Source: Acidimicrobiia bacterium
GTDB taxonomy: Bacteria > Actinomycetota > Acidimicrobiia > Spongiisociales > UBA5794
DNA length: 64,000 bases
Assembly (NCBI GenBank): GCA_030066755.1
Contig: JASJAX010000006.1
Location: 10,583 to 74,582, forward strand
Direction of reading: 5' to 3'
The notes under the pieces are model-generated. The model made no database searches and had not been told where the DNA came from. It saw nothing but the letters and a program-made list of their open reading frames with translations. Made by a program: the position numbers and the translations under genes. This document shows positions 15,559 through 64,000 of this stretch, piece after piece (positions within the stretch are counted from its first letter, which is position 1; the number at the start of each line of letters is the position of its first letter).

Positions 15559-15567
15559 GTCGGGTCG

Positions 15568-24193: not shown

Positions 24194-24241
24194 TGTACTC
24201 AGTACTCGGTACTCAGTACTGGGACCGCCGAAGGCGGTCCC
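24194..24241. repeat. (GTACTCN)x4 followed by hairpin GGGACCGCC-GAAG-GCGGTCCC
   Basis: tgtactc agtactc ggtactc agtactg. A separate inverted repeat CGTGATGGC...GCCATCACG lies at about 24126-24148. Confidence 0.8.
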
Positions 24242-27833: not shown

Positions 27834-27843
27834 ATCAGCGTCG

Positions 27844-27871
27844 CAGGTCCCAGGTCTCAAGTCCCAGGTCA
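27844..27871. repeat. (CAGGTCY)x4
   Basis: caggtcc caggtct caagtcc caggtca, between the SPFH fragment and the 3' end of the selenoprotein candidate. Confidence 0.75.
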
Positions 27872-28256: not shown

Positions 28257-28295
28257 GGTCTCTATCCGAGACCTGAGACCTGAGACCTGTGACCC
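28257..28295. repeat. GGTCTC/GAGACC inverted pair followed by (GAGACCT)x3 and GTGACCC
   Basis: ggtctctatccgagacc tgagacc tgagacc tgtgaccc. This is the reverse complement of the CAGGTCT family. Confidence 0.8.
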
Positions 28296-28509: not shown

Positions 28510-29664
28510 CTAAGGAAGCCCGTCCAACGCCTGGGCGAGGTCCTCGATGAGGTCGTCCGCGTCCTCGAGCCCGACCGAGAGTCGGACCAGACCGTCGGTG
28601 ATACCGATGCGGGCACGCTCGTCCGGCGGGATCGCAGCATGCGTCATCGTCACGGGGTGCGTGATGAGCGACTCGACCGAACCGAGGTTCTCGGCGAGCG
28701 TCCAGAGGCGCACGTTGTCCATGATCGCCTTGCCGGCTTCGAGACCGCCCTTGACTTCGAACCACGCCATGGCTCCGAACCCGGTCGCTTGCTGCTTGGC
28801 CAGGTCGTGCTGTGGAAACGACTCCAACCCGGGGTAGGCCACCGTGGCGACCTTTGGGTGGCCCTCGAGGAAGCGAGCGACCCGCATGGCGTTGTCGGAC
28901 TGCCGATCCATCCGTTCGGTGAGGGTCTTGACACCCTGCAGGGTGAGCCAGGCGACCTGGGGGGACATCGTGGTCCCGGTCGAGTTCTGGATGAACTTGA
29001 TCTGCTCGTGGAGCTCGGGCGTGCGGCTCACGACCGCCCCGCCGACCGTCGCGTTGTGGCCGTCCATGTACTTGGTCGTCGAGTGCACGATGAGGTCCGC
29101 ACCGAGCTCGAACGGTCGCTGGTAGTACGGCGTCAGGAACGTGTTGTCGACGCAGTGGGGGACCCCAGCCTCCTGGGCGATGTCGGAAACCGCTCGCAGA
29201 TCCGTCAGCTTCAAGGTGGGGTTGGCCGGCGTCTCGGTGAAGACCAACGCGGTCGAATCACGCAAGGCCGCAGCGACGTTGTCCGCTTTCGAGGTGTCGA
29301 CGAACTCGAACTCGATCCCGAACCTCGTGTACACCTGCGATGCAAGCCGATGCGTGCCGCCGTAGACGACATCGGACACGACAACGTGGTCGCCTGCGTT
29401 CAGCATGGCGAGGAAGACGGCATTGGTCGCAGCCATGCCCGTGGCAAACGCTGCTGCGTCATGGCCGCCCTCGAGGACGGCCACCTTCTCCTCGAACGCG
29501 CGCACGGTCGGATTCCCGGATCGCGAATACGAGTATCCGGTCGCCATGTAGTCGTCGACCGACGGCTGCACGAACGTCGTCGACTGATGGATCGGGGTCA
29601 GGATCGCGCCGGTCGTCGGGTCTGGCGTCACTCCGGCGTGGATCTGCTTGGTTCGAAATCGCAT
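28510..29664 (-). CDS. cystathionine gamma-synthase / O-succinylhomoserine sulfhydrylase family (Cys/Met metabolism PLP enzyme)
   Basis: MRFRTKQIHAG...SGNPT... and a PLP-Lys region (HSTTKYMDGH). Length is 384 aa. Confidence 0.85.
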   Translation of the reverse strand: MRFRTKQIHAGVTPDPTTGAILTPIHQSTTFVQPSVDDYMATGYSYSRSGNPTVRAFEEKVAVLEGGHDAAAFATGMAATNAVFLAMLNAGDHVVVSDVVYGGTHRLASQVYTRFGIEFEFVDTSKADNVAAALRDSTALVFTETPANPTLKLTDLRAVSDIAQEAGVPHCVDNTFLTPYYQRPFELGADLIVHSTTKYMDGHNATVGGAVVSRTPELHEQIKFIQNSTGTTMSPQVAWLTLQGVKTLTERMDRQSDNAMRVARFLEGHPKVATVAYPGLESFPQHDLAKQQATGFGAMAWFEVKGGLEAGKAIMDNVRLWTLAENLGSVESLITHPVTMTHAAIPPDERARIGITDGLVRLSVGLEDADDLIEDLAQALDGLP

Positions 29665-29709
29665 ACGAGTAGTCAACCACACGGAGGTCCCTGAGGTTCG
29701 GGCCGCGTC

Positions 29710-34882: not shown

Positions 34883-36265
34883 CTACGGGGTCCGGCACCG
34901 CAGGATCGCCGCGACGCTCTCGTCGACGTCCTGCTCGGTGGTTGCCCAGTTCGACACGGAGATCCGCATCGCCGCCTTGCCACGGAACGTCGTCCCGCCG
35001 GCCCAGCAGGTGCCGTCCCGCTGAACCCGGTCGATCACCATCCACGTGTACGCATCGGAATCCTCGGTCGACACGAACCGGACCAACACCTGGTTGAGCA
35101 CCACGTCGTTGAGGATCTCGATGTCGTCGACGGCACCGAGCCGGTCGGCGAATCGGCGGGCGAGCCGGCAACATCGGTCGATCATCTCGTCGATACCCGA
35201 CCTCCCGAGTGACCGAATCGCTGCATACGTGGGGACCCCCCGGGCACGACGTGACGCATCGGGACCCCAGTTCATCGGGTCGCGTCTCGCATCGTCCTGG
35301 GAGACGAGATACGGCGCCAGCTGGGTCATGGCGGCCGCATGAGCCTCCGGATCTGCGGTGATGGCGTACCCGGTGTCGTAGGGGACGTTGAGCCACTTGT
35401 GTCCGTCGACACTCCACGAGTCGGCCCGGTCGACGCCTTCGGCGAGATGTCGCCGGTCGGCGCAGGCTCGCGCCCACAGTCCGAATGCTCCGTCGACGTG
35501 GACCCACCCGCCGCGTGCATGCGCTGCGTCAACGATCGGGCCAAACGGGTCAAAGGCGCCCGTGTTGACTTCACCGGCTTGGGCGCAGACGATCAGCGGG
35601 CCGTCGACGTCGTCGAGCACCGCACCGAGCGCCTCGGGGATCATTCGGCCCTGTTCGTCGGAATCGACGGTGCGCAGCGTCTGATCGCCGAAGCCGAGGA
35701 AGCGGAGGGCGCGGTCGATGGTGCTGTGTCGGGAGGAACCGACGACGACGGTGACGTGTGGAGCGCCGAGCAGGCCGTGCGCCTCGACGTCCCAGCCGAC
35801 GTCCGCCAAGACGCGGTGGCGAGCCGCCGCCAGGCACGTCCAGTTGGCCATCTGGGCTCCGGTGACGAAACCCACGCCGGCGTTCGGGGGGAGTCCGAGG
35901 AGATCCAGCAGCCACGACGCGGCGATGTTCTGTGCAGTGATGGCCGCCGGCGACATCGGCCACAGCGCCGTGTTCTGATCCCAGGCAGTCGCCATCCAAT
36001 CGGCCGCCATCGCAGCCGGAACGGAGCCGCCGGTTACAAACCCGAAGTACCTCGGCCCGCTGCTGGCGACGAGTCCCGGTTCCGCTTCGACGGCGAGATC
36101 GTGGACCACGGTCGCCGGATCGACGGGCCGTTCGGGGAGCACACGATCGATGGGCAACTCGGTGTCGGGGGCGTCCGGAGCAACCGCCCGGTCGCCGAGA
36201 CCCGTCAGGTACTCAACCGCTGCACGGTGGGCGGCGTCGAGCGCCCGCTGAACCTCGTCACTCAC
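34883..36265 (-). CDS. pyridoxal-dependent decarboxylase (group II, DABA/aromatic amino-acid decarboxylase-like)
   Basis: SWSVDGHKWLNVPYD contains the PLP-Lys motif DxHKW. The GTG start overlaps the stop of the next gene by 4 nt. Confidence 0.8.
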   Translation of the reverse strand: MSDEVQRALDAAHRAAVEYLTGLGDRAVAPDAPDTELPIDRVLPERPVDPATVVHDLAVEAEPGLVASSGPRYFGFVTGGSVPAAMAADWMATAWDQNTALWPMSPAAITAQNIAASWLLDLLGLPPNAGVGFVTGAQMANWTCLAAARHRVLADVGWDVEAHGLLGAPHVTVVVGSSRHSTIDRALRFLGFGDQTLRTVDSDEQGRMIPEALGAVLDDVDGPLIVCAQAGEVNTGAFDPFGPIVDAAHARGGWVHVDGAFGLWARACADRRHLAEGVDRADSWSVDGHKWLNVPYDTGYAITADPEAHAAAMTQLAPYLVSQDDARRDPMNWGPDASRRARGVPTYAAIRSLGRSGIDEMIDRCCRLARRFADRLGAVDDIEILNDVVLNQVLVRFVSTEDSDAYTWMVIDRVQRDGTCWAGGTTFRGKAAMRISVSNWATTEQDVDESVAAILRCRTP

Positions 36266-36621
36266 GATCGAAAGCGGAATAGCACGTTGACGATCTGCCA
36301 GCCGTCGGTTCCCTTGACGAGATGGAGGAGGTCGATGTACTCGGGAGACACGACTCGGGCGGTTGCGATCTCGTCGGAGACGTCGTAGACCGTGACGACG
36401 AACTCGGCGCTCGGGTCCTCGCCCCCGCCCTCCTTCGTGAGCTCGACCATTCGGTCCTTCGTCACCTCTCGGAGCGAGCCGTAGCCCTCCGGGTCCGTGA
36501 GGATCCGCTTGACCAGGTCTGCGTGTAGTGCACGATCGATCCGCGCCACGTCGCCGCGATACCAACCCTCGACATAGTCCCCAGCAACCGCCTCGATCGC
36601 CGCAATGTCCGCCGAATCCAT
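36262..36621 (-). CDS. NTF2-like (SnoaL/DUF4440-like) domain protein
   Basis: About 120 aa. Pattern DIAAIEAVAGDYVEGWYRGD...W. Confidence 0.45.
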   Translation of the reverse strand: MDSADIAAIEAVAGDYVEGWYRGDVARIDRALHADLVKRILTDPEGYGSLREVTKDRMVELTKEGGGEDPSAEFVVTVYDVSDEIATARVVSPEYIDLLHLVKGTDGWQIVNVLFRFRS

Positions 36622-44201: not shown

Positions 44202-44259
44202 CCAGGCCTCCGGCCTGGCTATTCGAGTACTGAGTACCGAGTACTGAGTACCGAGACCA
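44202..44259. repeat. hairpin CCAGGCC-TCC-GGCCTGG then (GAGTACY)x4 + GAGACC
   Basis: Directly after the ilvD stop. Reads gagtact gagtacc gagtact gagtacc gagacc. Confidence 0.85.
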
Positions 44260-51661: not shown

Positions 51662-52258
51662 TCACGCCATCCGAGCGGTCGCCGCCGCGAGGTCGTCCGG
51701 CGTGTTGACGCTCCACCAGGACGACCCATCCTCGCCCCAGCTTCGCCAGGTGTCCGGCACGATCTCGTGAAGGGGCACACGGTCGAGTACTGCGTGCAGC
51801 GGTGGATCGTCCGCGCCGGTGAGGAGGTCGTCGACGATGGCTGCACAGTTCGGCCAGTACACCGCACACGTCGGTTGTCGTTTGCCGCTGTCGATCGGGA
51901 CGACGGCATCTCCGTCGGCGACTGCCAACAGATGGCGGATCGTCTGCGGGCGCACGAACGGTTGGTCGACGCCGACGAGCACCACTGGCGCGCCGGCGGC
52001 GATCCGCAGCGCAGTGGAGAGGCCGGCGACCGGGCCACGCCGACCGGCCGGCGAGTCGGGGACACTGTGGATTCCGGCCGGTCGATCCGACCTTCCGATG
52101 ACGGCGACCCGACACCCGGCCGCTTCCAGCGCTTCAGCGGTGTACTCGATCATTGGTCGCCCGGCGAGGTCGACCAGGGCCTTGTCGACGCCCATGCGGG
52201 TGGACCGTCCTCCAGCGAGGATTGCGCCGAGCGGAGATGGACGCGTCATGGGACCCAT
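51662..52258 (-). CDS. mobA: molybdenum cofactor guanylyltransferase
   Basis: LGAILAGGRSTRMGVDKAL matches the MobA N-terminal signature. The start may be at 52258 or 52249. Confidence 0.7.
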   Translation of the reverse strand: MGPMTRPSPLGAILAGGRSTRMGVDKALVDLAGRPMIEYTAEALEAAGCRVAVIGRSDRPAGIHSVPDSPAGRRGPVAGLSTALRIAAGAPVVLVGVDQPFVRPQTIRHLLAVADGDAVVPIDSGKRQPTCAVYWPNCAAIVDDLLTGADDPPLHAVLDRVPLHEIVPDTWRSWGEDGSSWWSVNTPDDLAAATARMA

Positions 52259-52400: not shown

Positions 52401-53924
52401 ATGACCGATCGTCTGCGTGCCTTCTTCCCGCGACCCGTCACCGGCGACATCGTCGCCGGTGTCAGTGTGTCGCTGATCTTGATCCCCCAGGCTTTGGCCT
52501 ACGCCGACCTCGCCGGCTTGCCGCCGGTGTATGGCCTGTTCGCCGCCGCTCTCCCGCCGATCGTCGCCGCCATCTTCGCTTCGTCGCCATATCTGCAGAC
52601 CGGACCGGTGGCGATGACCGCCTTGCTCACGTTCGGGGCCCTGAGTCAGCTCGAGACTCCCGGATCCATGGAGTATGTGAAGCTCGCTGCCCTGCTGGCG
52701 TTGATCGTCGGGGTGGTGCGCGTGATCGTCGGCTCGCTTCGCGCCGGAGCGGTGGCGTACTTGATGTCACAGCCGGTCATCCAGGGGTTCACCGGCGGCG
52801 CGGCGATCCTGATCATCGCCTCGCAGCTGCCGACGGCGCTCGGTGCCGATGCTCCAGATGGCGGGGTGCTGCGCCGGGCTTGGTGGAGTGTCACGAACTT
52901 CAGTGAATGGGAGCTCGCCGCGGTTGCGATCACCCTCCTAGCGGCGTCGCTCCTGACCTTCGGCTCCAGGATCCACCCGCTGTTTCCCAGCGTGCTCGTC
53001 GCGGTTGCTGCTGCGCTCGTCTGGTCCATGATCACCGACTACTCAGGTCAGATCGTCGGCGAGGTCCCGGGTGGTCTCCCGCCGTTCTCGCTGGCGTTGC
53101 CGTGGAGCCGCTTCACCGACATCGCCGTCGCCGGTGCGGTGATCGCCCTCGTCGGATTCGCGGAACCGGCGTCGATCGCCCGGGCGTACGCGGCGCGGGA
53201 GCGGACACCATGGAGTCCCGATCGCGAGTTCCTCAGCCAGGGTGCCGCCAACCTCGCATCCGGCATCTCGGGAGGGTTTCCGATTGGTGGATCGTTCTCG
53301 CGGACGTCGGTGAATCACCTCGCCGGCGCCAAGACACGATGGAGTGGCGCCGTCACGGGACTCGTCGTATTTGCGTTCCTGCCGTTTGCCGGGATCATCG
53401 AGGACCTTCCCCGCGCCGTGCTGGCGGCCATCATCATCGTGGCGGTCGCCAAGCTGATCCGAGTGCCGGCGCTGCTCTCGTTGTGGAAGTACTCGAAGCC
53501 GCAGGCGCTGGTCGCCTACGTGACCTTCGGTGCAACATTGGTATTGGCGCCACGGATCGATCAAGCCGTGCTCGTCGGCATCGTGACGGCGATCGCAATC
53601 CACCTCTGGCGTGAACGGGTTGTCTCCGTCGAACTGGAGGTGCGTCGCGGCGGTGTGGCCCGGATCCGGCCTCAGGGTGTGTTCTGGTTCGGTTCGGCGC
53701 CCGACCTCGCAGAGGCGATGAACGAGCTGATGGGTGCGTATCCCGAGGCCGACACCATCGAGATCGACCTCGGCGGGCTCGGCCGGATCGACTACTCCAG
53801 TGCGGTGATGCTGCGGGACATGGTGAACGACGCCCGCAAGGCCGGATACGAAGTCGACGTGATCGCCGTCCCGGAGCACGCCCGCCGCATCTTGCGCGCC
53901 GTGTGGGCCGAGGAGATCAGGTAG
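52401..53924 (+). CDS. SulP family inorganic anion (sulfate) transporter with STAS domain
   Basis: Polytopic core with a C-terminal STAS-like domain. Motifs include GLPPVYGLF. Confidence 0.85.
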   Translation: MTDRLRAFFPRPVTGDIVAGVSVSLILIPQALAYADLAGLPPVYGLFAAALPPIVAAIFASSPYLQTGPVAMTALLTFGALSQLETPGSMEYVKLAALLALIVGVVRVIVGSLRAGAVAYLMSQPVIQGFTGGAAILIIASQLPTALGADAPDGGVLRRAWWSVTNFSEWELAAVAITLLAASLLTFGSRIHPLFPSVLVAVAAALVWSMITDYSGQIVGEVPGGLPPFSLALPWSRFTDIAVAGAVIALVGFAEPASIARAYAARERTPWSPDREFLSQGAANLASGISGGFPIGGSFSRTSVNHLAGAKTRWSGAVTGLVVFAFLPFAGIIEDLPRAVLAAIIIVAVAKLIRVPALLSLWKYSKPQALVAYVTFGATLVLAPRIDQAVLVGIVTAIAIHLWRERVVSVELEVRRGGVARIRPQGVFWFGSAPDLAEAMNELMGAYPEADTIEIDLGGLGRIDYSSAVMLRDMVNDARKAGYEVDVIAVPEHARRILRAVWAEEIR

Positions 53925-57626: not shown

Positions 57627-57651
57627 GCGCGAGACGCAGTGAACATCCGAA

Positions 57652-57680
57652 GGGGGCGGCCATCCGGCCGCCCCCTTCTT
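57652..57680 (+). terminator. rho-independent terminator after beta-helix gene
   Basis: GGGGGCGGCC-ATCC-GGCCGCCCCC followed by TTCTT. Confidence 0.8.
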
Positions 57681-57713
57681 GTCTCGGTCTCAGTACCCGG
57701 TACTCGGTACTCC
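57681..57713. repeat. heptamers GTCTCG GTCTCA GTACCCG GTACTCG GTACTCC
   Basis: Immediately after the terminator, between convergent genes. Confidence 0.8.
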
Positions 57714-57726: not shown

Positions 57727-58851
57727 TCATTCGGACAACGCACACTCGTTTCGTCCGACCTCGAGCTCCATGGCTTCGTCGTGGGTCGGGATGTGCCAGC
57801 CCATGTTGACTTCGCGGATCGTGGCGTAGACCCCGGGCGCCTCGCCGAGATGGGAGACCACGTACGCAACGAACTCGCCCTCGTCGTCCATCGACACGAC
57901 CGGATCGTTGGCGAGGAGGTCACCGAGCTTGCGCCGTAGCGTTCCATCGGCCTGCGACTCGAGGCGGCTCGTGTAGTGGGCCGGGCAGACCTCGAGCTCC
58001 GAGTCGAGTGGTGCCAGCTGCTCGTGGATCGTGCGGAACAGATCGCGCGCCCACGGTTCCGTCTCGCCACCGAGGTCGGGTCTGCCGACCCCCGACACGA
58101 AGACTGCGTCACCCGTCATGAGGTAGCGGCCGTCGACCTCGAGCGAGGTGGACCCAGGGGTGTGTCCGGGAGTTGCCACCGACCGAACGATGATCTGCAT
58201 CGTGCCGAGTTGGAAGACGGCACCGTCGGTGAGCGCGTCGTACTTGAAGTGGGCTCCCTCGGCGTCGCCCGGTGCGATGTGATAGGTCGCCCCGAACTCG
58301 GCGGCCATCTGCACCCCGAGGGAGAGGTGGTCGGCGTGCAGGTGAGTGTCGAACACGTCGGTGATCTCGCACTCCATGTCGGCGGCGATCCGCTCGTACG
58401 CTGATGCGTCTCCGGCCGGGTCGATCACCGCCATCGACGATCCGCGAGATCCGACGGCGTACGACAGGCACGCCTTGGCGATTCGATCGAGCTGGACGAC
58501 GAACTTGGTCCCGTCGTCATACAGGACGTGCGGGACCAGGGTGCGTGCCCAGGCGTCCATTCCTCCGGCGAGGTTGTGCAGGTTGTCGAGCCCCAAGGTC
58601 TCGACGACGAGGTCGGATGAGTCGCCGTGCGCACATACGACGACTACCTCGCGGTCGTGGGGCACGACCTCCCTGGTCTCCTCGTCGTCGACGATCGCCG
58701 TCCAGTACGGGATGTTGAGGGTGGCCATGTCGGCCTTCCCCTCGATCTGCCATCGCTCGAACTGATCGGGTGCGCGAACGTCGAGAATGAATGGCGCAGA
58801 ATCGGGATCGTCGACGCGTCGGGCCAACTCGTCGGTCGTGATGGCAGTCAC
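57727..58851 (-). CDS. rhodanese-domain / MBL-fold persulfide-dioxygenase-like fusion protein
   Basis: N-terminal rhodanese domain (ILDVRAPDQFERWQIEG...VVVVCAHGDSS). C-terminal metallo-beta-lactamase domain with HLHADH. GTG 58851 is preceded by a GGGGAGAGAG SD-like sequence. An alternative ATG lies at 58887. Confidence 0.7.
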   Translation of the reverse strand: MTAITTDELARRVDDPDSAPFILDVRAPDQFERWQIEGKADMATLNIPYWTAIVDDEETREVVPHDREVVVVCAHGDSSDLVVETLGLDNLHNLAGGMDAWARTLVPHVLYDDGTKFVVQLDRIAKACLSYAVGSRGSSMAVIDPAGDASAYERIAADMECEITDVFDTHLHADHLSLGVQMAAEFGATYHIAPGDAEGAHFKYDALTDGAVFQLGTMQIIVRSVATPGHTPGSTSLEVDGRYLMTGDAVFVSGVGRPDLGGETEPWARDLFRTIHEQLAPLDSELEVCPAHYTSRLESQADGTLRRKLGDLLANDPVVSMDDEGEFVAYVVSHLGEAPGVYATIREVNMGWHIPTHDEAMELEVGRNECALSE

Positions 58852-58937
58852 AGGCTCTCTCCCCAGGTCGCATGCGTCAAGGCGCATACAACTCTAACGA
58901 GGCGCGGCGATCCGCCACAAGGAGTTTCTGCGTTTCG

Positions 58938-59255
58938 CTAGCTGAGGCTCGTTGCGGAGCCGAGCTGCTCGTTCATGACCTCGCGGAGCAGATCCATGGC
59001 TTCGACGATCTTGGTCGACGTGAGCGAGTAGTACACCCACTGGCCGTCACGGCGACCCGTCACCAGCCCGCGATCGCGAAGCACGGCGAGATGCTGGGAA
59101 ACGTTGGCCTGCGGGATATCGAGGTCATCGACGAGATCGGTCACAGAGCGCTCGCCATCGCGCAAGGCGTTGAGGATCAACAGTCGCTTCGGGTCGGCGA
59201 GACCTTTGCAGACGCTGGCGTGGAGTTGGTAGAGCTCGTTGCGGATCGATGACAT
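58938..59255 (-). CDS. ArsR/SmtB family transcriptional regulator
   Basis: ELYQLHASVCKGLADPKRLLILNAL...QANVSQHLAVLRDRGLV is a winged-HTH ArsR signature. Length is 105 aa. Confidence 0.8.
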   Translation of the reverse strand: MSSIRNELYQLHASVCKGLADPKRLLILNALRDGERSVTDLVDDLDIPQANVSQHLAVLRDRGLVTGRRDGQWVYYSLTSTKIVEAMDLLREVMNEQLGSATSLS

Positions 59256-59309
59256 GGCTGAACTATGCCATACCCCCGCGGCAAGGCCAAGGGCGGACCA
59301 CGGCGAACT

Positions 59310-59331
59310 GGTTGACAGATGATGGTCAACC
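59310..59331. promoter_or_regulatory. candidate ArsR-family operator GGTTGAC-N8-GTCAACC in divergent arsR / dsrE-like promoter region
   Basis: Perfect 7-bp inverted repeat. A locally AT-rich segment follows, caatgcatatatctgcgatgca (59348-59369), with its own TGCAT/ATGCA inverted repeat. Confidence 0.5.
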
Positions 59332-59387
59332 CGGCGAGGATGCACACCAATGCATATATCTGCGATGCAAGCGGGAGGGAGGACCCG

Positions 59388-59873
59388 ATGACCGACTCGT
59401 CCGAGAAGATGGTGATCATCGCGGCTTCCGGCGACCTCGATAAGGCGTGGCCGGTGATGATCCTGGCGACGACCGGTGCGGCCTACGGCATGGATGTCAC
59501 CGTGTTCTTCACTTTCTGGGGCCTCGGGATCCTGAAGAAGCCGGATGCCGGTCTCACGGGTGACGACTGGCGTCAGAAGATGCTCTCGGTCTTCAAGCCC
59601 GGGTCCACGGGCAAACTCGGCCTCTCGACGATGAACATGGGCGGCATGGGCGCGAAGATGATGAAAGGGCTGGCCGACGACCACAACGTGGCTTCGGTTC
59701 AGGAGCTGCTCGAGATGTCACAGGACATGGGAGTGAAGCTCTGGCCGTGCCAGATGACGATGGATCTGATGGGGTTATCGCGTGATGACATGATCGACGG
59801 CCTCGACGAACCGGCCGGCGCCGGCTCAGCCATCAGCCTCATGAAGGAAGCCTCGATCAGCTTGTTCATCTAG
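59388..59873 (+). CDS. DsrE/DsrF-like family protein
   Basis: KMVIIAASGDLDKAWPVMILATTGAAYGMDVTVFFTFWGL is a DsrE-like fold. SD GGGAGGGAGGA lies upstream. Confidence 0.7.
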   Translation: MTDSSEKMVIIAASGDLDKAWPVMILATTGAAYGMDVTVFFTFWGLGILKKPDAGLTGDDWRQKMLSVFKPGSTGKLGLSTMNMGGMGAKMMKGLADDHNVASVQELLEMSQDMGVKLWPCQMTMDLMGLSRDDMIDGLDEPAGAGSAISLMKEASISLFI

Positions 59874-59903
59874 GAGCGCACCAGAGAGAGGGAGAGAACC
59901 GAA

Positions 59904-60128
59904 ATGGCAGATGCAACCGTCGATGCTCGAGGCCTCCAGTGCCCGATGCCTGTGATCAAGGTCTCGCAGGCCGTCAAGGGCATGGAGTCCGGGCAGACCG
60001 TCGAGGTCATCGCAACCGACCGTGGCGCCTTGTCGGACATCCCGGCATGGGCCAAGGACATGGGCCACGCGCTGAAGGAGCAGTTCGAAGAGAACGACGA
60101 GTTCCACTTCATCGTCCAAAAGGGGTAG
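59904..60128 (+). CDS. TusA-like sulfurtransferase
   Basis: 74 aa. GLQCPMPVIK carries the CPxP motif. Confidence 0.8.
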   Translation: MADATVDARGLQCPMPVIKVSQAVKGMESGQTVEVIATDRGALSDIPAWAKDMGHALKEQFEENDEFHFIVQKG

Positions 60129-60160
60129 TTCGTACGTGCAGGAAGTAGCGTTGTCGTTCC

Positions 60161-60194
60161 GGTCTCAGTACTCAGTACTCGGTACTCAGTACTG
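60161..60194. repeat. (GGTCTCA)(GTACTCA)(GTACTCG)(GTACTCA)(GTACTG)
   Basis: Between the tusA-like stop and the FeS-NrfD gene. Confidence 0.85.
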
Positions 60195-60223
60195 CGAGCG
60201 ACGACCGTAGGGAGGAGCGAGCC

Positions 60224-61831
60224 CTGAGATACGGTTTCGTCATCGACCAGACCACGTGCATCGGCTGTCACGCGTGCACCGTCGCCTGCAAGACCGAGCA
60301 CGAGGTGCCGCTCGGCGTGAACCGCACGTGGGTGAAGTACGTCGAGAAGGGTGCGTGGCCCGACACGAAGCGGTTCTTCTCGGTGATGCGCTGCAACCAT
60401 TGCAGTGACGCGCCGTGCGTCGACATCTGCCCGACCACGGCCCTCTTCAAGCGCACCGACGGCATCGTGGACTTCGACACCGACCGGTGCATCGGATGCA
60501 AGTCGTGTATGCAGGCCTGTCCGTACGACGCCCTCTACATCGACCCGGGCGAGCACACCGCTCAGAAGTGCAACTACTGCGTACATCGAGTCGAGGTGGG
60601 GATCGAACCGGCATGTGTGGTGGTGTGCCCCGAACAAGCGATCATCGCCGGTGACCTGGACGACCCGACGACGAAGATCGCTCAAATGGTGAAGACCGAG
60701 CGGCTCTATCAGCGTGCGCCAGAGCAGGGCACGAGCCCCAACCTCTGGTACCGCGGGGTCGAGGAGGCCAACATCGATCCACTCGTCGCCGCCGACCCCG
60801 GTGACGGTGGCGTGTGGAAGGACCCTGCCCGCTCATGGCTGTCCGTGGATCTGACGCCGCCGACGGTGTCCCCGGACACGGCACAGGTGGCGCCGAATGC
60901 ACCACCACGCGTCGAGTACGACGGCCCCAAGGGTGCGCCGCGGGTTGTCTACAACACCGACCACCCGATGCCGTGGGGTTGGAGAGTTTCGAGCTACTTC
61001 CTCACCAAGGGCATTGCCGCAGGGTTGGTGATTCCACTCGCGCTGGCGTTGATCTTCGGTAGCAATGAACGAGACTTCTCCGGCGCTGACTCCGCCTGGG
61101 CTCTGTGGGGCGTGCCGCTGTTCGCCGGCTTGTTCCTCGCGCTCACCGGAGCCCTGCTGGTGTGGGACTTGAAGCGCCCCGACCGGTTCTACTACCTGCT
61201 CACCAAGGGCAATCCCGGTTCGTGGCTGGTTCGCGGCGCGTGGATCCTGAGTGCGTTTGCCGGAGTCGTTGCGCTGTGGTTCTTACTCGGCGTCTTCGAT
61301 GTGGGCGGTGACGATGCGATCACGGTGCTGGCTGCGATCGCCGCCGTCATCGGGCTCGGCGTTGCGGGATACACCGCGCTGCTCTTCGGCCAGGCCGAGG
61401 CGCGTGACCTCTGGCAGAGCCCGATGCTGCTGTGGCACATGCTCGCCGGTGCGTTGGCCGCCGGCGGCGGGGCCGGGCTCGTTTTCGGTTTGGTCTTCGA
61501 TCTCAGCGCCGGCACCGAACGCTGGTACGCCGGGTCGATGGTCGTCGGTGCTGCCGCACTCGGCCTGATCGCGCTCGTCGAGCTGATGTCAAAGCACCCG
61601 ACCCGCAATATCACGGAGGCGATGCACCACATGACGCACGGCGCGTACGCCCGTGAATGGTGGATCGGTGGCCAGCTCGTCGGCGTCGTTGTTCCCGTCG
61701 TGCTCGGCCTGGTGTTCCTCTCCGGCGCCGGTCTGTGGACGGGTGCCATCGGGGGCCTCGCTGCGTGTGCCGGGATCTGGTTCGCCGACGATGCGTTCGT
61801 GAAGGCCGGCCAGAGCGTTCCGCTTTCCTGA
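60224..61831 (+). CDS. fused 4x[4Fe-4S] ferredoxin (PsrB/NrfC-like) and NrfD/PsrC-like membrane anchor subunit
   Basis: The frame reads (L)RYGFVIDQTTCIGCHACTVAC...CNHCSDAPCVDICP...CIGCKSCMQACP...CNYCVHRV, four Cys clusters. Eight TM helices follow, with DLKRPDRF (NrfD motif). The only start consistent with keeping the first cluster is CTG 60224, 7 nt after SD GGAGGA (60211-60216). The in-frame stop is at 60146. Confidence 0.7.
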   Translation: MRYGFVIDQTTCIGCHACTVACKTEHEVPLGVNRTWVKYVEKGAWPDTKRFFSVMRCNHCSDAPCVDICPTTALFKRTDGIVDFDTDRCIGCKSCMQACPYDALYIDPGEHTAQKCNYCVHRVEVGIEPACVVVCPEQAIIAGDLDDPTTKIAQMVKTERLYQRAPEQGTSPNLWYRGVEEANIDPLVAADPGDGGVWKDPARSWLSVDLTPPTVSPDTAQVAPNAPPRVEYDGPKGAPRVVYNTDHPMPWGWRVSSYFLTKGIAAGLVIPLALALIFGSNERDFSGADSAWALWGVPLFAGLFLALTGALLVWDLKRPDRFYYLLTKGNPGSWLVRGAWILSAFAGVVALWFLLGVFDVGGDDAITVLAAIAAVIGLGVAGYTALLFGQAEARDLWQSPMLLWHMLAGALAAGGGAGLVFGLVFDLSAGTERWYAGSMVVGAAALGLIALVELMSKHPTRNITEAMHHMTHGAYAREWWIGGQLVGVVVPVVLGLVFLSGAGLWTGAIGGLAACAGIWFADDAFVKAGQSVPLS

Positions 61832-61847
61832 GGAGGATGACGACACC

Positions 61848-64000
61848 ATGACGACGCAGCGGGACGATCGTATCCCCCGTCTCCTCCCGGGGAGCGAGCT
61901 GACCAACTTCCCACCGCCGGACCGGTGGGACGACTGGGTCGAGTACGACGCACGGGCCTGGCCGAATCGGGTGACCCACGAGTACCGACTCGTGCCGACG
62001 ACGTGTTTCAACTGCGAGTCCGCGTGCGGGCTGCTCGCGTACGTCGACAAGGAGACGGGTGACGTTCGCAAGTTCGAAGGTAATCCCGCGCATCCAGGAA
62101 GTCGCGGCCGCAACTGTGCCAAGGGTCCCGCGACGATCAACCAGATGTACGACCCGGAGCGGATCCTCCACCCGATGCGTCGCGTCGGCGAGCGGGGTTC
62201 GGGCCAGTGGGAGCAGGTCAGCTGGGAGGAGGCGCTCCAGGACATCGCCGGTCGGATGCGCACCGCCATCCAGGAGGGACGTCAGGACGAGATCATGTAT
62301 CACGTCGGGCGGCCCGGCGAAGACGGGTTCATGGATCGCACGCTCAAGGCCTGGGGCGTCGACGGGCACAACAGCCACACGAACATCTGCTCGTCGGGAG
62401 CCCGCACCGGCTATGCCATGTGGATGGGTCACGATCGACCGTCAGCCGACTTCGCCAACGCCCGGTTCATCCTCCTGCTGTCATCGCACCTCGAGACCGG
62501 CCACTACTTCAACCCCCACGCCCAGCGGATCATGGAGGGGAAGCAGTCCGGAGCGAAACTCGCCACCATCGATCCGAGGCTCTCGAACACGGCGTCGATG
62601 TCGGACTACTGGCTGTCGCCGTGGCCGGGGACTGAGGCTTCGATCCTCCTCGCCATCGCCAATCTCCTGCTCGAGTGGGATGCGGTCGACCACACGTTCA
62701 TGAAACGCTGGGTCGACTGGGAGGGCGCGCTCGAGGCGAAGGCCCCGGGCGAGCCGAAGACGTACGAGCGGTTTGTCCAACTCCTCCGTGACACCTACGC
62801 CGGCTACACGGTGGAGTTCGCCGCAGCGGAGTCTGGCGTCGATGCCGAGCGGATCGATGCGGTGGCGCGAGGCATCGCCGAGGCCGGACACCAGTTTGCG
62901 TCGCACACGTGGCGGTCGGCCGGCTCAGGCAACCTCGGTGGTTGGCAAGTCGCCCGATGCCTGTGGTTCCTCCACGTGCTCACGGGCGCCGTCGGCACGC
63001 GTGGCGGGACCTCGCCGAGTGCGTGGGACAAGTTCAAGCCCGCGCACTGGAACATGCCGCCGCCGCACAGCCGATGGAACGAGCTGCTGTGGCCCAAGGA
63101 GTACCCGTTCAGCCACCACGAGCTCTCGATCCTGCTCCCGCATCTCTTGAAGGAGGGCCGCGGCAAGGTCGACGTGTACTTCAGCCGCGTCTACAACCCG
63201 ATCTGGACCAACCCGGACGGGTTCTCGTGGCTCGAGGCGTTGACCGACGAGTCGAAGGTCGGGTTGCACGTGGCGATGACGCCGACGTGGTCCGAAACGG
63301 CCTGGTTCGCCGACTACGTCCTGCCCATGGGGGTGGCCTCAGAGCGTCACGACACCCATTCCTATGAAACCCACGCCGGCCGCTGGCTCGGTTTCCGCCA
63401 GCCGGTCTTGCGGGTCGCAGCCGAGCGTGATGGCAAGCAGTTCGATCGCACCTACGAGGCCAACCCCGGAGAGGTGTGGGAAGAAACGGAGTTCTGGATC
63501 GACCTGTCCTGGCGCATCGACCCGGACGGATCGCTCGGGATCAAGGAGTGGTTCCAGTCGCCGAATGACCCCGATCGGCCGGTGTCGGTCGACGAGTACT
63601 ACGGATGGATGTTCGAGAACAGTGTGCCCGGTCTCCCCGAGAAGGCGGCGGCCGAAGGGATCACTCCGCTCCAGTTCATGCGGAAGTACGGCGCCGTCGA
63701 AGTGGAGAAGGACATCTACAAGGTCCACGAGCGCCCGGCGGCCGCCGACGCTCCAGGGGTGACCGTTGAGGGTGATCGGAAGACCGGCTTCAACTCGCCG
63801 AGCCGCAAGCTCGAGTGGTACTCGCAAACGATGGACGAGTGGGGGTGGCACGAGGAAGCGATTCCGACCTACCTCAAGACGCACGTCTACTGGCGCGACC
63901 TCGACCTGGCCGGCAACGAACGGGTCCTGTTGCCGATCTTCCGGCTCCCGACGCTCATCCACACCCGGTCCGGCAACGCCAAGTACCTGTACGAGATCAG
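61848..64000 (+). CDS. molybdopterin (bis-MGD) oxidoreductase catalytic subunit, no Tat signal (3' end outside window)
   Basis: The N-terminal CFNCESACGLLAYVD...GRNCAKG is the MopB [4Fe-4S] motif. HTNICSSG may be the Mo-ligand region. There is no RRxFLK motif. SD GGAGGA lies at 61832-61837. Confidence 0.8.
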   Translation, partial: MTTQRDDRIPRLLPGSELTNFPPPDRWDDWVEYDARAWPNRVTHEYRLVPTTCFNCESACGLLAYVDKETGDVRKFEGNPAHPGSRGRNCAKGPATINQMYDPERILHPMRRVGERGSGQWEQVSWEEALQDIAGRMRTAIQEGRQDEIMYHVGRPGEDGFMDRTLKAWGVDGHNSHTNICSSGARTGYAMWMGHDRPSADFANARFILLLSSHLETGHYFNPHAQRIMEGKQSGAKLATIDPRLSNTASMSDYWLSPWPGTEASILLAIANLLLEWDAVDHTFMKRWVDWEGALEAKAPGEPKTYERFVQLLRDTYAGYTVEFAAAESGVDAERIDAVARGIAEAGHQFASHTWRSAGSGNLGGWQVARCLWFLHVLTGAVGTRGGTSPSAWDKFKPAHWNMPPPHSRWNELLWPKEYPFSHHELSILLPHLLKEGRGKVDVYFSRVYNPIWTNPDGFSWLEALTDESKVGLHVAMTPTWSETAWFADYVLPMGVASERHDTHSYETHAGRWLGFRQPVLRVAAERDGKQFDRTYEANPGEVWEETEFWIDLSWRIDPDGSLGIKEWFQSPNDPDRPVSVDEYYGWMFENSVPGLPEKAAAEGITPLQFMRKYGAVEVEKDIYKVHERPAAADAPGVTVEGDRKTGFNSPSRKLEWYSQTMDEWGWHEEAIPTYLKTHVYWRDLDLAGNERVLLPIFRLPTLIHTRSGNAKYLYEI

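What the first reader, a model, noticed from the sequence alone, without database searches (positions are those of the whole stretch)
57727..64000. Cytoplasmic sulfur-oxidation/detox cluster: ArsR regulator, rhodanese-PDO fusion, DsrE-like, TusA-like, fused FeS+NrfD subunit and Tat-less molybdoenzyme (SoeABC-like)
The gene order is rhodanese-MBL persulfide-dioxygenase-like fusion (-), ArsR-family regulator (-), DsrE-like (+), TusA-like (+), PsrB-like 4x[4Fe-4S] fused to an NrfD-like anchor (+), and a MopB catalytic subunit (+). The MopB N-terminus MTTQRDDRIPRLL has no twin-arginine signal. A cytoplasm-facing MopB with Fe-S and NrfD partners, next to TusA and DsrE sulfur relay proteins, is the arrangement seen for sulfite-oxidising SoeABC in sulfur oxidisers. 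A persulfide dioxygenase would generate sulfite from persulfide. Fusion of the B and C subunits into one polypeptide, and the Rhd-PDO domain order, are uncommon. A SulP transporter and mobA lie about 8 kb upstream.
Basis: partly seen in the sequence, partly recalled or inferred. Interest (0 to 1): 0.7.

Follow-up and report, generated by a model that had tools for sequence, protein, structure and literature searches.

The report
Cytoplasm-facing molybdoenzyme in sulfur detox cluster
An uncultured Acidimicrobiia bacterium has a gene cluster that probably turns toxic persulfide into sulfite and then sulfate inside the cell; the last step appears to use a widespread, unstudied two-protein molybdenum enzyme that resembles the known sulfite dehydrogenase SoeABC in layout but not in ancestry.

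Summary
All six genes are real and lie where stated, after three start-codon corrections. The molybdoenzyme has no Tat signal and cannot be extended upstream. Its partner is one polypeptide: a 16-Cys, four-cluster ferredoxin domain fused to an 8-helix NrfD anchor, starting at a CTG codon that gene callers miss.

The Soe-like function is supported. The Soe-like identity is not. The fused FeS-NrfD gene followed by the MopB gene (order B-C-A, as in ttrBCA) is an invariant two-gene core. It occurs in hundreds of species: Acidimicrobiia, Rhodococcus jostii RHA1, Thermomicrobium roseum, haloarchaea, Blastocatellia and Myxococcota. Its nearest relatives are Tat-exported B-C-A enzymes with separate B and C subunits.

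The neighbours of this core differ between lineages but all make or move sulfite:
- Rhd-PDO, TusA and DsrE2 in the window, RHA1 and many Acidimicrobiia
- Rhd-PDO and a TauE/SafE exporter in haloarchaea
- PDO-Rhd and YeeE/YedE-type transporters in Myxococcota
- cysteine dioxygenase in Blastocatellia
- SulP and MobA in many loci

The best reading is a sulfite:menaquinone oxidoreductase that is analogous to SoeABC and probably not orthologous. I could not obtain a SoeA sequence, so the direct phylogenetic test is still open.

The parts
57727..58887 (-). Rhodanese-MBL fusion, 386 aa: a putative persulfide dioxygenase with an N-terminal sulfurtransferase domain. The rhodanese loop is CAHGDSS. The MBL motifs are THLHADH, TPGHTPG and TGDAVF. 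A conserved C-terminal N-x-C-A cysteine is also present.
   Evidence: Pfam Rhodanese and Lactamase_B. The best PDB matches are 3TP9, BpPRF 5VE3, 4YSB, CstB 3R2U and ETHE1 4CHL. Full-length homologues lie next to the same enzyme in RHA1 (42% identity) and in haloarchaea (33-35%).
58938..59255 (-). ArsR/SmtB-family repressor, 105 aa, transcribed divergently from the operon. It has a single cysteine, Cys16, in the motif HAxVCKGLADPKRL.
   Evidence: HTH_5, E = 1.6e-17. It scores 65 bits against the BigR model, below the cut-off of 155. Cys16 is invariant in 28 of 28 distinct orthologues, and the window protein lacks a second Cys.
59311..59369 (.). Divergent promoter/operator region. It holds TTGACA (59312-59317), the inverted repeat GTTGAC-N8-GTCAAC, and repeated ATGCA / ATGCATATAT boxes (59340-59369).
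   Evidence: Sequence. A GCATAT(A/G)/ATATGC box recurs at the same place in the arsR-dsrE2 spacer of most orthologous loci. Its role as an operator is inferred.
59388..59873 (+). Soluble DsrE2-like sulfur carrier, 161 aa, with a conserved Cys in LWPCQMT.
   Evidence: PF13686, E = 3.6e-50. It scores 98 bits against the NCBIfam DsrE2 model, below the cut-off of 210. The PDB match 3PNX aligns the Cys.
59904..60128 (+). TusA-family sulfur carrier, 74 aa, with the motif C-P-M-P.
   Evidence: PF01206, E = 2.8e-26.
60164..60193 (.). Heptamer tandem array (CTCAGTA x 4.3) in the spacer between tusA and the FeS-NrfD gene. A near-identical contig has two copies instead of four.
   Evidence: It belongs to a window-wide class of heptamer arrays.
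60224..61831 (+). Fused electron-transfer and membrane-anchor subunit, 535 aa. It comprises an N-terminal domain with four [4Fe-4S] motifs (residues 1 to about 150), a linker of about 100 aa, and an 8-helix NrfD/PsrC-type quinone-interacting domain (residues 259 to about 522). It starts at CTG.
   Evidence: Fer4_11 and NrfD. TtrB is the best NCBIfam match for the FeS part, at 184 bits, below its cut-off. Hydropathy and charge analysis. Start-codon comparison. Sixteen Cys in four motifs.
61848..64000 (+). Catalytic bis-MGD molybdo- (or tungsto-) enzyme subunit of the MopB/DMSO-reductase superfamily. The window holds residues 1-717 of 910. There is no Tat signal. The FS0 cluster motif is C53-x2-C56-x3-C60...C90. 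The predicted metal ligand is Cys181, in NSHTNICS.
   Evidence: Pfam Molybdop_Fe4S4 and Molybdopterin. The full-length protein, P0001, comes from L004. PsrA 2VPW is the best solved relative at 5e-30, with the Cys aligned.
52401..53924 (+). SulP-family anion transporter with a STAS domain. It is a candidate sulfate exporter or sulfur-oxyanion transporter. It is separated from the cluster here but directly adjacent in many relatives.
   Evidence: Pfam annotation. It lies within 6 kb of the FeS-NrfD gene in 16 of 46 species loci.
51662..52258 (-). MobA-like NTP transferase (molybdenum cofactor guanylyltransferase type), which would supply the bis-MGD cofactor.
   Evidence: PF12804. A MobA-like gene lies within 6 kb of the FeS-NrfD gene in 7 of 46 species loci. 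In haloarchaea a MobA gene follows the enzyme genes.

Best explanation
The cluster encodes an oxygen-dependent cytoplasmic route from sulfane sulfur to sulfate.

1. Persulfide sulfur arises from sulfide or from cysteine breakdown. The rhodanese domain, TusA and the DsrE2-like carrier pick it up and pass it on.
2. The MBL (persulfide dioxygenase) domain oxidises it to sulfite.
3. The molybdoenzyme MopB oxidises sulfite to sulfate on the cytoplasmic face of the membrane.
4. The two electrons pass through the FS0 cluster and the four [4Fe-4S] clusters of the fused subunit to menaquinone in its NrfD domain.
5. Sulfate leaves the cell through a SulP-type transporter.
6. The single-Cys ArsR repressor probably keeps the operon off until reactive sulfur modifies Cys16.

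The enzyme works like SoeABC, but it is a two-polypeptide enzyme from a different, Ttr-like (B-C-A gene order) branch of the molybdoenzyme superfamily.

Shown: gene identities, lack of a Tat signal, the fusion, clade membership and gene neighbourhoods.
Inferred: the substrate, the direction of the reaction, the quinone, the role of the carriers and the mode of regulation.
For: - Domains and motifs.
- Cytoplasmic orientation: no Tat signal, an upstream stop codon, and a FeS domain that begins at residue 2 and is predicted to face inward.
- The FeS-NrfD plus MopB pair is invariant, while its neighbours change but all point to sulfite:
  - Rhd-PDO, TusA and DsrE2 in 19-21 of 46 species loci and in RHA1.
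  - Rhd-PDO, a TauE/SafE-family (sulfite exporter family) protein, MobA and an anion permease in haloarchaea.
  - PDO-Rhd and two YeeE/YedE-type halves under a sigma-54 activator in Myxococcota.
  - Cysteine dioxygenase two genes upstream in four Blastocatellia loci.
  - SulP in 16 of 46 loci.
- Three different regulator types accompany the enzyme: ArsR, a CsoR/CstR-like protein in T. roseum with Cys39 and Cys68 but no His at the copper-ligand position, and a sigma-54 activator.
- To my knowledge the cultured hosts (RHA1, T. roseum, haloarchaea) are aerobes.
- The T. roseum genes that match by order and annotation (trd_A0630, A0629, A0628) are transcribed in aerobic cultures.
- Established knowledge: sulfite oxidation (E0' about -516 mV) easily reduces menaquinone.
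Against: - There are no biochemical data for any member of the clade.
- The best solved and HMM relatives are reductases (PsrA, PhsA, ArrA, TtrB).
- PDO-rhodanese fusions can release thiosulfate rather than free sulfite, so thiosulfate could be the substrate.
- About half of the species loci, including sponge-associated Acidimicrobiia, have no sulfur genes nearby.
- No sqr gene lies in the 64-kb window.
- Gene neighbourhood evidence is correlative.
Confidence: 0.55

Rival explanations
1. It is a true SoeABC orthologue, whose B and C genes have been fused and moved in front of A.
For: It has the same orientation and the same three modules. TusA and DsrE2 lie next to it, as in sulfur oxidisers. 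No SoeA sequence could be obtained, so orthology was never tested directly.
Against: - The gene order is B-C-A in every member and every relative examined.
- The closest outgroups inside a 100%-bootstrap clade are Tat-exported B-C-A-TorD systems.
- No Tat-less protein of about 950 aa from an A-B-C operon appears among the best 150 representatives. All full-length hits at 29-36% identity carry a Tat signal, except P0249 and P0263. P0249 sits in a B-A operon without NrfD; the context of P0263 was not examined.
- IMG assigns no SoeA name.
- A published DMSO-reductase-family tree places SoeA with SreA, apart from the tetrathionate reductase branch (PMC4378227).
Confidence: 0.1
2. It is a cytoplasm-facing sulfur-compound reductase of the Psr/Phs/Ttr type. 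It would use menaquinol to reduce polysulfide, thiosulfate, tetrathionate or TusA-bound sulfane sulfur.
For: The best solved relative is polysulfide reductase PsrA, and the Cys ligand is aligned. The best NCBIfam partial matches are PhsA and TtrB. The gene order matches ttrBCA. TusA and DsrE could present a protein-bound substrate.
Against: - All those matches fall far below the family cut-offs.
- Making sulfide in the cytoplasm next to an oxygen-dependent persulfide dioxygenase would be a futile cycle.
- The links to CDO, TauE and SulP point to sulfite or sulfate rather than sulfane sulfur.
- The cultured hosts are aerobes, and the T. roseum genes are expressed aerobically.
Confidence: 0.15
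3. It oxidises thiosulfate, either free or carried as a thiosulfonate on TusA or DsrE, rather than free sulfite. In effect it would be a reversed, cytoplasmic Ttr-like thiosulfate:quinone oxidoreductase.
For: To my knowledge, PDO-rhodanese fusions (CstB, BpPRF) form thiosulfate, and DsrE3A/TusA of Metallosphaera carry thiosulfate. These fusions are the top PDB matches. YeeE/YedE-type transporters in the Myxococcota locus belong to a thiosulfate-uptake family. The clade has a weak (41% bootstrap) affinity to TtrA.
Against: - The tetrathionate/thiosulfate couple (about +170 to +200 mV, my knowledge) cannot reduce menaquinone.
- The CDO and TauE contexts give sulfite, not thiosulfate.
- Many loci lack TusA and DsrE.
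Confidence: 0.12
4. The substrate is not a sulfur compound. It could be arsenite, selenium oxyanions, formate or an organic compound, and the sulfur genes are neighbours for other reasons.
For: - The regulator belongs to the ArsR/SmtB metalloregulator family.
- Databases call the protein formate dehydrogenase or selenocysteine-containing dehydrogenase.
- Half of the loci have no sulfur genes.
- A Psr-like relative in Azoarcus lies beside arsenic genes.
Against: - Sulfur genes accompany the enzyme independently in at least five distant lineages, with three regulator types.
- No ars, selenium or formate genes lie in the cluster.
- The Azoarcus protein lies outside the clade.
Confidence: 0.08

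Closest known systems
SoeABC, the cytoplasm-facing sulfite:quinone oxidoreductase of Allochromatium vinosum, Aquifex aeolicus and Ruegeria pomeroyi
   Same: The MopB subunit has no Tat signal. There is a four-cluster FeS module and an NrfD-type anchor, with the active site facing the cytoplasm. It is placed downstream of a cytoplasmic sulfite-generating system, and Rhd, TusA and DsrE2-type carriers are in the same genome region.
   Different: There are two polypeptides rather than three, because B and C are fused. The gene order is B-C-A rather than A-B-C. It belongs to a clade whose other members are Tat-exported B-C-A-TorD enzymes. The sulfite source is an oxygen-dependent PDO (or CDO) rather than rDsr or sHdr. 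Orthology to SoeA is untested, and the indirect evidence is against it.
Tetrathionate reductase TtrBCA (Salmonella, Klebsiella)
   Same: The gene order is B-C-A. TtrB is the best NCBIfam match of the FeS domain. TtrA is the nearest named branch in the NJ tree, but with only 41% support.
   Different: TtrA is only 23% identical, and the window protein scores 75 bits against a cut-off of 1750. TtrA has a Tat signal and faces the periplasm. Its B and C subunits are separate. It is a reductase used in anaerobic respiration.
Polysulfide reductase PsrABC of Thermus thermophilus (PDB 2VPW-2VPZ) and thiosulfate reductase PhsABC
   Same: PsrA is the closest solved structure (E = 5e-30). It shares the FS0 motif, the Cys metal ligand, the four-cluster B subunit and the 8-helix NrfD-type C subunit.
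   Different: Psr and Phs are exported by Tat, have gene order A-B-C, and are about 760 aa long. PhsA is 24% identical.
The cst operon of Staphylococcus aureus and the yrk cluster of Bacillus (CstR, CstA, CstB, SQR, TauE), and the BigR-Blh and SqrR systems
   Same: A reactive-sulfur-responsive repressor stands next to a persulfide dioxygenase-rhodanese fusion and TusA/DsrE-type carriers, forming a sulfide detoxification module.
   Different: The rhodanese domain precedes the MBL domain here. The repressor has one invariant Cys instead of the Cys pair of BigR and SqrR. Sulfite is apparently oxidised by a respiratory molybdoenzyme instead of being exported by TauE or trapped as thiosulfate. No sqr gene is in the cluster.
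The rhd-tusA-dsrE2 sulfur relay of sulfur oxidisers (Dahl laboratory)
   Same: All three protein types are encoded together next to a cytoplasmic sulfite-forming and sulfite-oxidising system.
   Different: The rhodanese is fused to the dioxygenase. The DsrE2-like protein is soluble and scores below the DsrE2 equivalog cut-off. No Dsr or sHdr genes lie in the window.

Membership tests
SoeABC (sulfite dehydrogenase, quinone) | The catalytic MopB subunit and the FeS subunit lack Tat signals, so the active site faces the cytoplasm | tested here: met
   No RR motif is present. A stop lies 15 codons upstream of the MopB start. The FeS domain starts at residue 2. Hydropathy and the positive-inside rule place it in the cytoplasm.
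SoeABC (sulfite dehydrogenase, quinone) | Three separate subunits encoded in the order soeA-soeB-soeC | tested here: not met
   The genes are a fused B-C gene followed by A. The same holds in all 80+ related loci and in cultured hosts.
SoeABC (sulfite dehydrogenase, quinone) | The catalytic subunit falls in the SoeA clade in a phylogeny | tested here: inconclusive
   No SoeA sequence could be obtained. The indirect evidence is negative: a 100%-bootstrap clade shared with Tat-bearing B-C-A enzymes; no SoeA-like representative among the best 150; IMG gives only the COG0243 name; and the literature places SoeA with SreA, not Ttr.
SoeABC (sulfite dehydrogenase, quinone) | Sulfite-dependent quinone reduction | not testable with these tools
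   This needs enzyme assays.
Psr/Phs polysulfide or thiosulfate reductase | Tat-exported PsrA/PhsA-type catalytic subunit that scores above the family cut-off | tested here: not met
   There is no Tat signal. It scores 159 bits against the PhsA model, whose cut-off is 694. It is 24% identical to PhsA.
Psr/Phs polysulfide or thiosulfate reductase | Cys ligand to Mo/W and an N-terminal FS0 [4Fe-4S] motif | tested here: met
   Cys181 aligns with the PsrA, PhsA and TtrA Cys. The four FS0 Cys are conserved. This feature is shared by several families and does not discriminate between them.
TtrBCA tetrathionate reductase | Gene order ttrB-ttrC-ttrA | tested here: met
TtrBCA tetrathionate reductase | TtrA-type catalytic subunit above the family cut-off, with a Tat signal | tested here: not met
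   It scores 75 bits against a cut-off of 1750, is 23% identical, has no Tat signal, and groups with TtrA at only 41% bootstrap.
Persulfide dioxygenase (ETHE1, CstB, PRF) | MBL fold with the His/His/Asp iron-binding positions, and closest similarity to known PDOs rather than to glyoxalase II | tested here: met
   The motifs THLHADH, TPGHT and TGDA are present. The seven best PDB matches are PDO or PDO-rhodanese proteins, ahead of glyoxalase II. Activity has not been tested.
Persulfide dioxygenase (ETHE1, CstB, PRF) | Domain order PDO then rhodanese, as in CstB and PRF | tested here: not met
   The rhodanese domain is N-terminal (residues 17-115) and the MBL domain covers residues 139-296. This order is conserved in RHA1 and haloarchaeal homologues.
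BigR/SqrR persulfide-sensing ArsR repressors | Two conserved cysteines that form an intramolecular di- or tetrasulfide | tested here: not met
   The window protein has only Cys16, which lies in a different helix position. It scores 65 bits against the BigR model, whose cut-off is 155.
TusA | TusA fold with the Cys-Pro-x-Pro motif | tested here: met
   PF01206 at 91.6 bits, above the cut-off of 28.6. The motif is CPMP.
DsrE2 (NCBIfam equivalog NF047629) | Score above the equivalog cut-off | tested here: not met
   It scores 98 bits against a cut-off of 210. It is nonetheless a clear member of Pfam PF13686, and the active-site Cys is conserved.

The most novel reading that the evidence does not exclude
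The fused FeS-NrfD plus Tat-less MopB pair would be a previously unrecognised, widespread two-subunit family of respiratory sulfite dehydrogenases. It would have arisen from a periplasmic Ttr-like (B-C-A) lineage by loss of the Tat signal and fusion of the B and C subunits, converging on the function of SoeABC. It would be the missing sulfite-oxidising step of heterotrophic PDO and CDO pathways in Actinomycetota, Chloroflexota, Acidobacteriota, Myxococcota and haloarchaea. Surveys that search only for SoeABC, SorAB or SUOX would not see it.
Probability: 0.45. Interest if true: 0.72.

Novelty: new variant of a known kind. Interest (0 to 1): 0.62.

Why it matters
Persulfide dioxygenase and cysteine dioxygenase pathways produce toxic sulfite inside the cell. 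In many aerobic heterotrophs no enzyme is known that removes it. A 2025 sediment study found SQR and PDO to be common, while SoeABC was undetected and SorAB and SUOX were rare (PMC12345210).

If this clade is a sulfite:quinone oxidoreductase, several things follow:
- It closes that gap for abundant marine, soil and sponge-associated Acidimicrobiia and for several other phyla.
- It links sulfide detoxification to the respiratory chain.
- It adds a marker gene for sulfur-cycle surveys.
- It gives a clear example of a membrane molybdoenzyme that changed sides of the membrane. Fusion of the FeS and anchor subunits appears only once Tat export is lost.

Rhodococcus jostii RHA1, Thermomicrobium roseum and Natrinema species carry the enzyme, so the idea can be tested directly.

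Tried and rejected
- **Looking for a SoeA reference sequence.** I tried NCBIfam, which has no Soe model among the 24 MopB models hit. I tried the PDB, which has no sulfite dehydrogenase of this type. I tried literature searches, names of cluster members and tblastn against plasmids. Candidate plasmid hits in Ruegeria, Phaeobacter, Caballeronia and Rhizobium were unrelated soluble MopB proteins or unannotated. The Tat-less representative P0249 sits in a B-A operon without NrfD.
- **Rfam scan of the cluster.** Only sub-threshold noise turned up. There is no Moco or other riboswitch.
- **Promoter and terminator scan.** It found no consensus sigma-70 promoter and no convincing terminator inside the operon.
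- **Is the conserved 255-aa gene after MopB (outside the window) a TorD/NarJ chaperone?** Pfam finds nothing. Profile-profile comparison with TorD proteins from the Tat-type relatives gives only E = 0.048 and probability 1%. However, the aligned stretch (RRFLxGDRIxHWAVPWLD against QRxFLxEHLLxWVPxYL) is the family's typical helix. This remains open. Its structure could not be predicted because the sequence may not be submitted to that tool.
- **The aminotransferase upstream of the core in a sponge-type Acidimicrobiia genome.** By my reading of its sequence it resembles an alpha-oxoamine synthase (KBL/BioF-like) rather than a cysteine sulfinate transaminase. It recurs only in the near-identical locus L041, so I did not count it as evidence.
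- **Monophyly of all Tat-less members.** It appears in the NJ tree but has only 12% bootstrap support. I therefore make no claim that the Tat signal was lost only once.

Full report
**1. What is in the window.**
The region 57.7-64 kb of this 65% G+C window holds two genes on the minus strand and four on the plus strand.

- Rhd-MBL, 57727-58887 (-), 386 aa. It has a rhodanese domain (residues 17-115, active-site loop CAHGDSS) followed by a metallo-beta-lactamase domain. Its seven best solved relatives are all persulfide dioxygenases or PDO-rhodanese proteins: 3TP9, BpPRF, the Myxococcus PDO 4YSB, S. aureus CstB 3R2U and human ETHE1. These rank ahead of the glyoxalase II entries. The motifs THLHADH, TPGHT and TGDA align.
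- ArsR-family regulator, 58938-59255 (-), 105 aa.
- PF13686 DsrE2-like protein, 59388-59873 (+). It has no predicted membrane segment, and its Cys aligns with that of PDB 3PNX.
- TusA, 59904-60128 (+), with the motif CPMP.
- FeS-NrfD fusion.
- MopB, which runs off the end of the window.

The intergenic gaps are 30, 95 and 16 bases, and no terminator-like site lies in them. The four plus-strand genes therefore look like one operon.

**2. Corrections to gene starts.**
The mechanical ORF for the FeS-NrfD gene begins at GTG 60305. That start removes the first cluster motif, CIGCHACTVAC. In frame and upstream lies CTG 60224, six bases after GGGAGGAG, and no ATG, GTG or TTG lies between the preceding stop and 60305.

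In 69 orthologous loci the codon at this exact position is CTG 23 times, TTG 17, GTG 12 and ATG 11. Six more loci have an ATG one codon upstream. A Shine-Dalgarno sequence precedes the site in the loci printed. CTG is therefore the real start, and public gene calls of 504-508 aa are truncated.

The full protein is 535 aa. It has sixteen Cys in four ferredoxin-type motifs, a linker of about 100 residues, and eight hydrophobic helices between residues 259 and about 522. The loops rich in Lys and Arg (after helices 2 and 6) lie on the same side as the N-terminal FeS domain, so that domain is cytoplasmic.

**3. No Tat signal.**
MopB starts at ATG 61848, behind GAGGAGG. An in-frame stop lies 15 codons upstream with no start codon between. 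Residues 1-50 carry a conserved PPPDRWDDWVEYD motif, not a signal peptide. The FS0 motif C53-x2-C56-x3-C60...C90 follows. Cys181, in NSHTNICS, aligns with the metal-ligand Cys of PsrA, PhsA and TtrA.

The full-length protein is 910 aa. I recovered it from near-identical metagenome contigs, as L004 and P0001.

**4. How widespread the enzyme is.**
The family is very common and highly conserved.

- The 120 best 90%-identity clusters are all at least 77% identical to the query. Those that carry an organism name are Acidimicrobiia or Actinomycetota MAGs.
The best 80 are mostly Acidimicrobiia (73-90% identity), with Blastocatellia, a Nitrospinota MAG and others at 62-64%.
- tblastn against plasmids found cultured hosts: the Thermomicrobium roseum megaplasmid (61%), Rhodococcus jostii RHA1 pRHL3 (60.5%) and the haloarchaea Natrinema, Halomarina and Halomicrococcus (51-56%).

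**5. The invariant core and its relatives.**
In every locus where the upstream DNA is present, a fused FeS-NrfD gene directly precedes the MopB gene. The same holds in T. roseum, RHA1, haloarchaea, the 60% representative P0121, a Myxococcota contig (P0124, 43%) and P0129.

An exhaustive search of 1.84 billion representatives shows that identity drops quickly beyond this group. Three relatives at 33-48% identity carry classic Tat signals: P0127, P0154 and P0181. For P0127 and P0154, whose loci I examined, the FeS and NrfD genes are separate and still in the order B-C-A. In the P0127 locus a cytochrome c gene lies upstream and a NarJ/TorD chaperone gene follows MopB.

So the fusion is found in every Tat-less member examined and in neither of the two Tat-exported relatives whose loci I examined. 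This makes sense: a FeS subunit that must be exported together with the MopB subunit cannot be part of an integral membrane protein.

I built a neighbour-joining tree from 36 sequences, 855 columns and 300 bootstraps. The Tat-less proteins and these three Tat-bearing relatives form a clade with 100% support. That clade lies apart from E. coli-plasmid PhsA, Klebsiella TtrA, E. coli DmsA and twelve Psr-like representatives. The core Tat-less group has 70% support. Monophyly of all Tat-less members has only 12%. A sister relation to TtrA has 41%.

Identity of the window protein to PhsA, TtrA and DmsA is 23-26%. No NCBIfam equivalog cut-off is approached (PhsA 159 of 694; TtrA 75 of 1750).

**6. 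Is it SoeABC?**
In orientation and module content, yes. In gene order and subunit number, no. I could not obtain any SoeA sequence, so the direct test is missing (see "tried and rejected"). The indirect evidence is against orthology.

- From memory of Dahl et al. 2013, SoeA is Tat-less, about 109 kDa, and encoded first in an A-B-C operon. No such protein appears among the best 150 representatives. Those representatives include many Tat-bearing Psr-like proteins at 29-36% identity. One of the two Tat-less exceptions, P0249, sits in a B-A operon without NrfD; the context of the other, P0263, was not examined.
- JGI/IMG names a neighbouring representative with the KEGG term "thiosulfate reductase/polysulfide reductase chain A". 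It gives all members of this family only the generic COG0243 name.
- A published DMSO-reductase-family tree places SoeA with Aquifex SreA, on a different branch from tetrathionate reductases (PMC4378227).

I therefore treat the enzyme as a functional analogue of SoeABC and do not file it as a member of that family.

**7. Evidence on function from gene neighbourhoods.**
The core stays constant and the neighbours vary. In five distant lineages the neighbours make or transport sulfite or sulfate.

- (a) Of 46 species loci with at least 4 kb of upstream DNA, 21 have TusA, 19 DsrE2, 21 the ArsR regulator, 20 the Rhd-PDO, 16 SulP and 7 a MobA-like gene.
- (b) RHA1 pRHL3 has the same arrangement: Rhd-MBL, DsrE-like, TusA, FeS-NrfD and MopB. 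It adds Mrp/NBP35, an ArsR gene, a CstB-like MBL and thioredoxin. Its Rhd-MBL is 42% identical to the window protein over the full length.
- (c) Haloarchaea have a Rhd-MBL of the same architecture (33-35% identity), a TauE/SafE-family (sulfite exporter family) protein, the two enzyme genes, MobA and an anion permease. One of the two loci also has Mrp.
- (d) The Myxococcota contig has a PDO-rhodanese gene and two YeeE/YedE-type half-transporters, next to a sigma-54 activator.
- (e) Four Blastocatellia-type loci have a type I cysteine dioxygenase two genes upstream. To my knowledge its product, cysteine sulfinate, yields sulfite.
- In T. roseum the pair follows a CsoR-family regulator that has Cys39 and Cys68 but Met rather than His at the copper-ligand position. 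By my reading this is the pattern of the persulfide sensor CstR.

About half of the loci show no sulfur genes nearby, including sponge-associated Acidimicrobiia. The enzyme is therefore not tied to one pathway. That fits an enzyme that removes sulfite from any source.

**8. The hosts are aerobes.**
To my knowledge RHA1, T. roseum and the haloarchaea are aerobes.

In a published T. roseum transcriptome, the genes trd_A0630 (regulator), trd_A0629 (4Fe-4S protein) and trd_A0628 (annotated as formate dehydrogenase) match the locus by order and annotation. They have several hundred to 3,500 normalised counts in aerobic cultures. The first two are 2.3-fold and 1.6-fold higher under nutrient limitation (PMC6776052 supplement). 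I made this mapping by gene order and annotation, not by sequence.

**9. The regulator.**
The ArsR protein is closest to NolR, Rv0081, NmtR and HlyU, and then to SqrR and BigR. It lacks the Cys pair of BigR and SqrR. Its only Cys, Cys16 in HAxVCKGLADPKRL, is invariant in 28 of 28 distinct orthologues, including that of RHA1. A second Cys is present in 18 of the 28 but not in the window protein.

The divergent spacer contains TTGACA and repeated ATGCA/ATGCATATAT boxes at 59340-59369. GCATAT/ATATGC boxes recur at the same place in most orthologous spacers. Thiol-based sensing through one Cys per subunit is plausible but only inferred.

**10. Proposed mechanism.**
Steps marked (I) are inferred. 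Persulfide sulfur is transferred among the rhodanese domain, TusA and DsrE2 (I). The MBL domain oxidises it with O2 to sulfite (I, based on homology to PDOs). MopB oxidises sulfite to sulfate at a Cys-ligated bis-MGD centre on the cytoplasmic side (I). The electrons travel through FS0 and four [4Fe-4S] clusters to menaquinone in the NrfD domain (I, by analogy with the Psr structure). Sulfate leaves the cell through SulP (I).

Because the quinone site would lie near the cytoplasmic face, the step itself is probably not electrogenic. Energy would be conserved downstream in the respiratory chain.

**11. Rival readings.**
The rivals are a cytoplasmic reductase of sulfane or thionate sulfur, a thiosulfate-oxidising enzyme, a true but rearranged SoeABC, and a non-sulfur substrate. 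Each is weighed in its own section of this report.

**12. Verdict.**
It is wrong, or at least unproven, about family membership.

What stands out is the enzyme family rather than this one cluster. It is a widespread, uncharacterised, two-subunit, cytoplasm-facing molybdoenzyme clade. Its gene contexts converge on sulfite, and it occurs in culturable hosts where the prediction can be tested.

Noticed in passing
window 7926-7958, 7974-8004, 14343-14380, 15563-15608, 18207-18245, 20501-20530, 20807-20828, 23108-23142, 24191-24220, 27840-27870, 28268-28294, 44224-44255, 57683-57712, 60164-60193: At least fourteen tandem arrays of 3-6.6 copies of a heptamer. The unit sequence differs from site to site (GCCAGTC, CAGTCGT, GGTCTCA, AGTACTG, CTCAGTA and others). 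Many lie in short intergenic gaps just after stop codons. Two flank or interrupt the sulfur cluster. Copy number differs between near-identical contigs: four copies here and two in L004. They recall the STRR heptamer repeats of cyanobacteria. I know of no description of them in Acidimicrobiia.
   Followed up: partly
window 60224-60226, and the orthologous position in L002-L077: The FeS-NrfD gene starts at CTG. Across 69 species loci, 52 use a weak start codon at this position (CTG 23, TTG 17, GTG 12) and 11 use ATG. Public gene calls start 27-31 codons too late and lose the first [4Fe-4S] motif.
   Followed up: yes
L004 4793-5560 (just beyond the window end); homologues in 36 of 66 loci: A conserved gene of about 255 aa with no Pfam match. 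In many loci it overlaps or abuts the MopB stop codon. It sits where the Tat-type relative P0127 has a TorD/NarJ chaperone gene. One helix resembles the TorD family motif, but the profile comparison is not significant (E = 0.048). RHA1 and one of the two haloarchaeal loci have an Mrp/NBP35 gene there instead.
   Followed up: partly
window 57727-57760 (C-terminus of the Rhd-PDO): A cysteine four residues from the C-terminus, in G-(R/P)-N-x-C-A, is conserved in the window, RHA1 and Natrinema Rhd-MBL proteins. It may be a third sulfur-carrying site.
   Followed up: no
L083 5819-6403; L078 829-1413; L080 4121-4699; L085 5614-6195: A type I cysteine dioxygenase, followed by a protein of about 230 aa with no Pfam match and an apparent N-terminal hydrophobic segment, lies directly upstream of the FeS-NrfD and MopB pair in Blastocatellia-type genomes.
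   Followed up: partly
window 10548-12658: Small and large subunit genes of a [NiFe] hydrogenase (Oxidored_q6, NiFeSe_Hases) in this Acidimicrobiia genome.
   Followed up: no
window 23164-24120, 28510-29682, 34883-36565: A PALP enzyme (cysteine synthase or CBS type), a Cys/Met-metabolism PLP enzyme (cystathionine lyase or synthase type) and a PLP decarboxylase. They could be internal sources of sulfide, persulfide or sulfinate for the cluster. No sqr gene was found anywhere in the window.
   Followed up: no
window 57650-57682: A G+C-rich hairpin (GGGGGCGGCC...GGCCGCCCCC) lies between the convergent beta-helix gene and the Rhd-PDO gene. It is followed on the + strand by TTCTTG, which makes it a likely terminator for the + strand gene and possibly for both convergent genes. 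It lies directly beside a heptamer array.
   Followed up: no
window 878-3139, 3136-3939, 5079-7004, 8863-9954: Several long ORFs with good codon bias (753, 267, 641 and 363 aa) have no Pfam match at E <= 1e-5.
   Followed up: no
L088 1745-8720; L100 5257-13148; L101 5844-12131: Tat-exported MopB systems share an operon of FeS, NrfD, MopB, TorD and a 360-370-aa ferredoxin, with unknown substrate. One is the clade member P0127 (L088). The others are two plasmid systems, in Azoarcus KH32C (which groups with Psr-like proteins in the tree) and Sulfurovum mangrovi (not placed in the tree). The Azoarcus copy lies next to arsenic-resistance genes and a regulatory set of PhnD-like binding protein, histidine kinase and sigma-54 regulator.
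   Followed up: no
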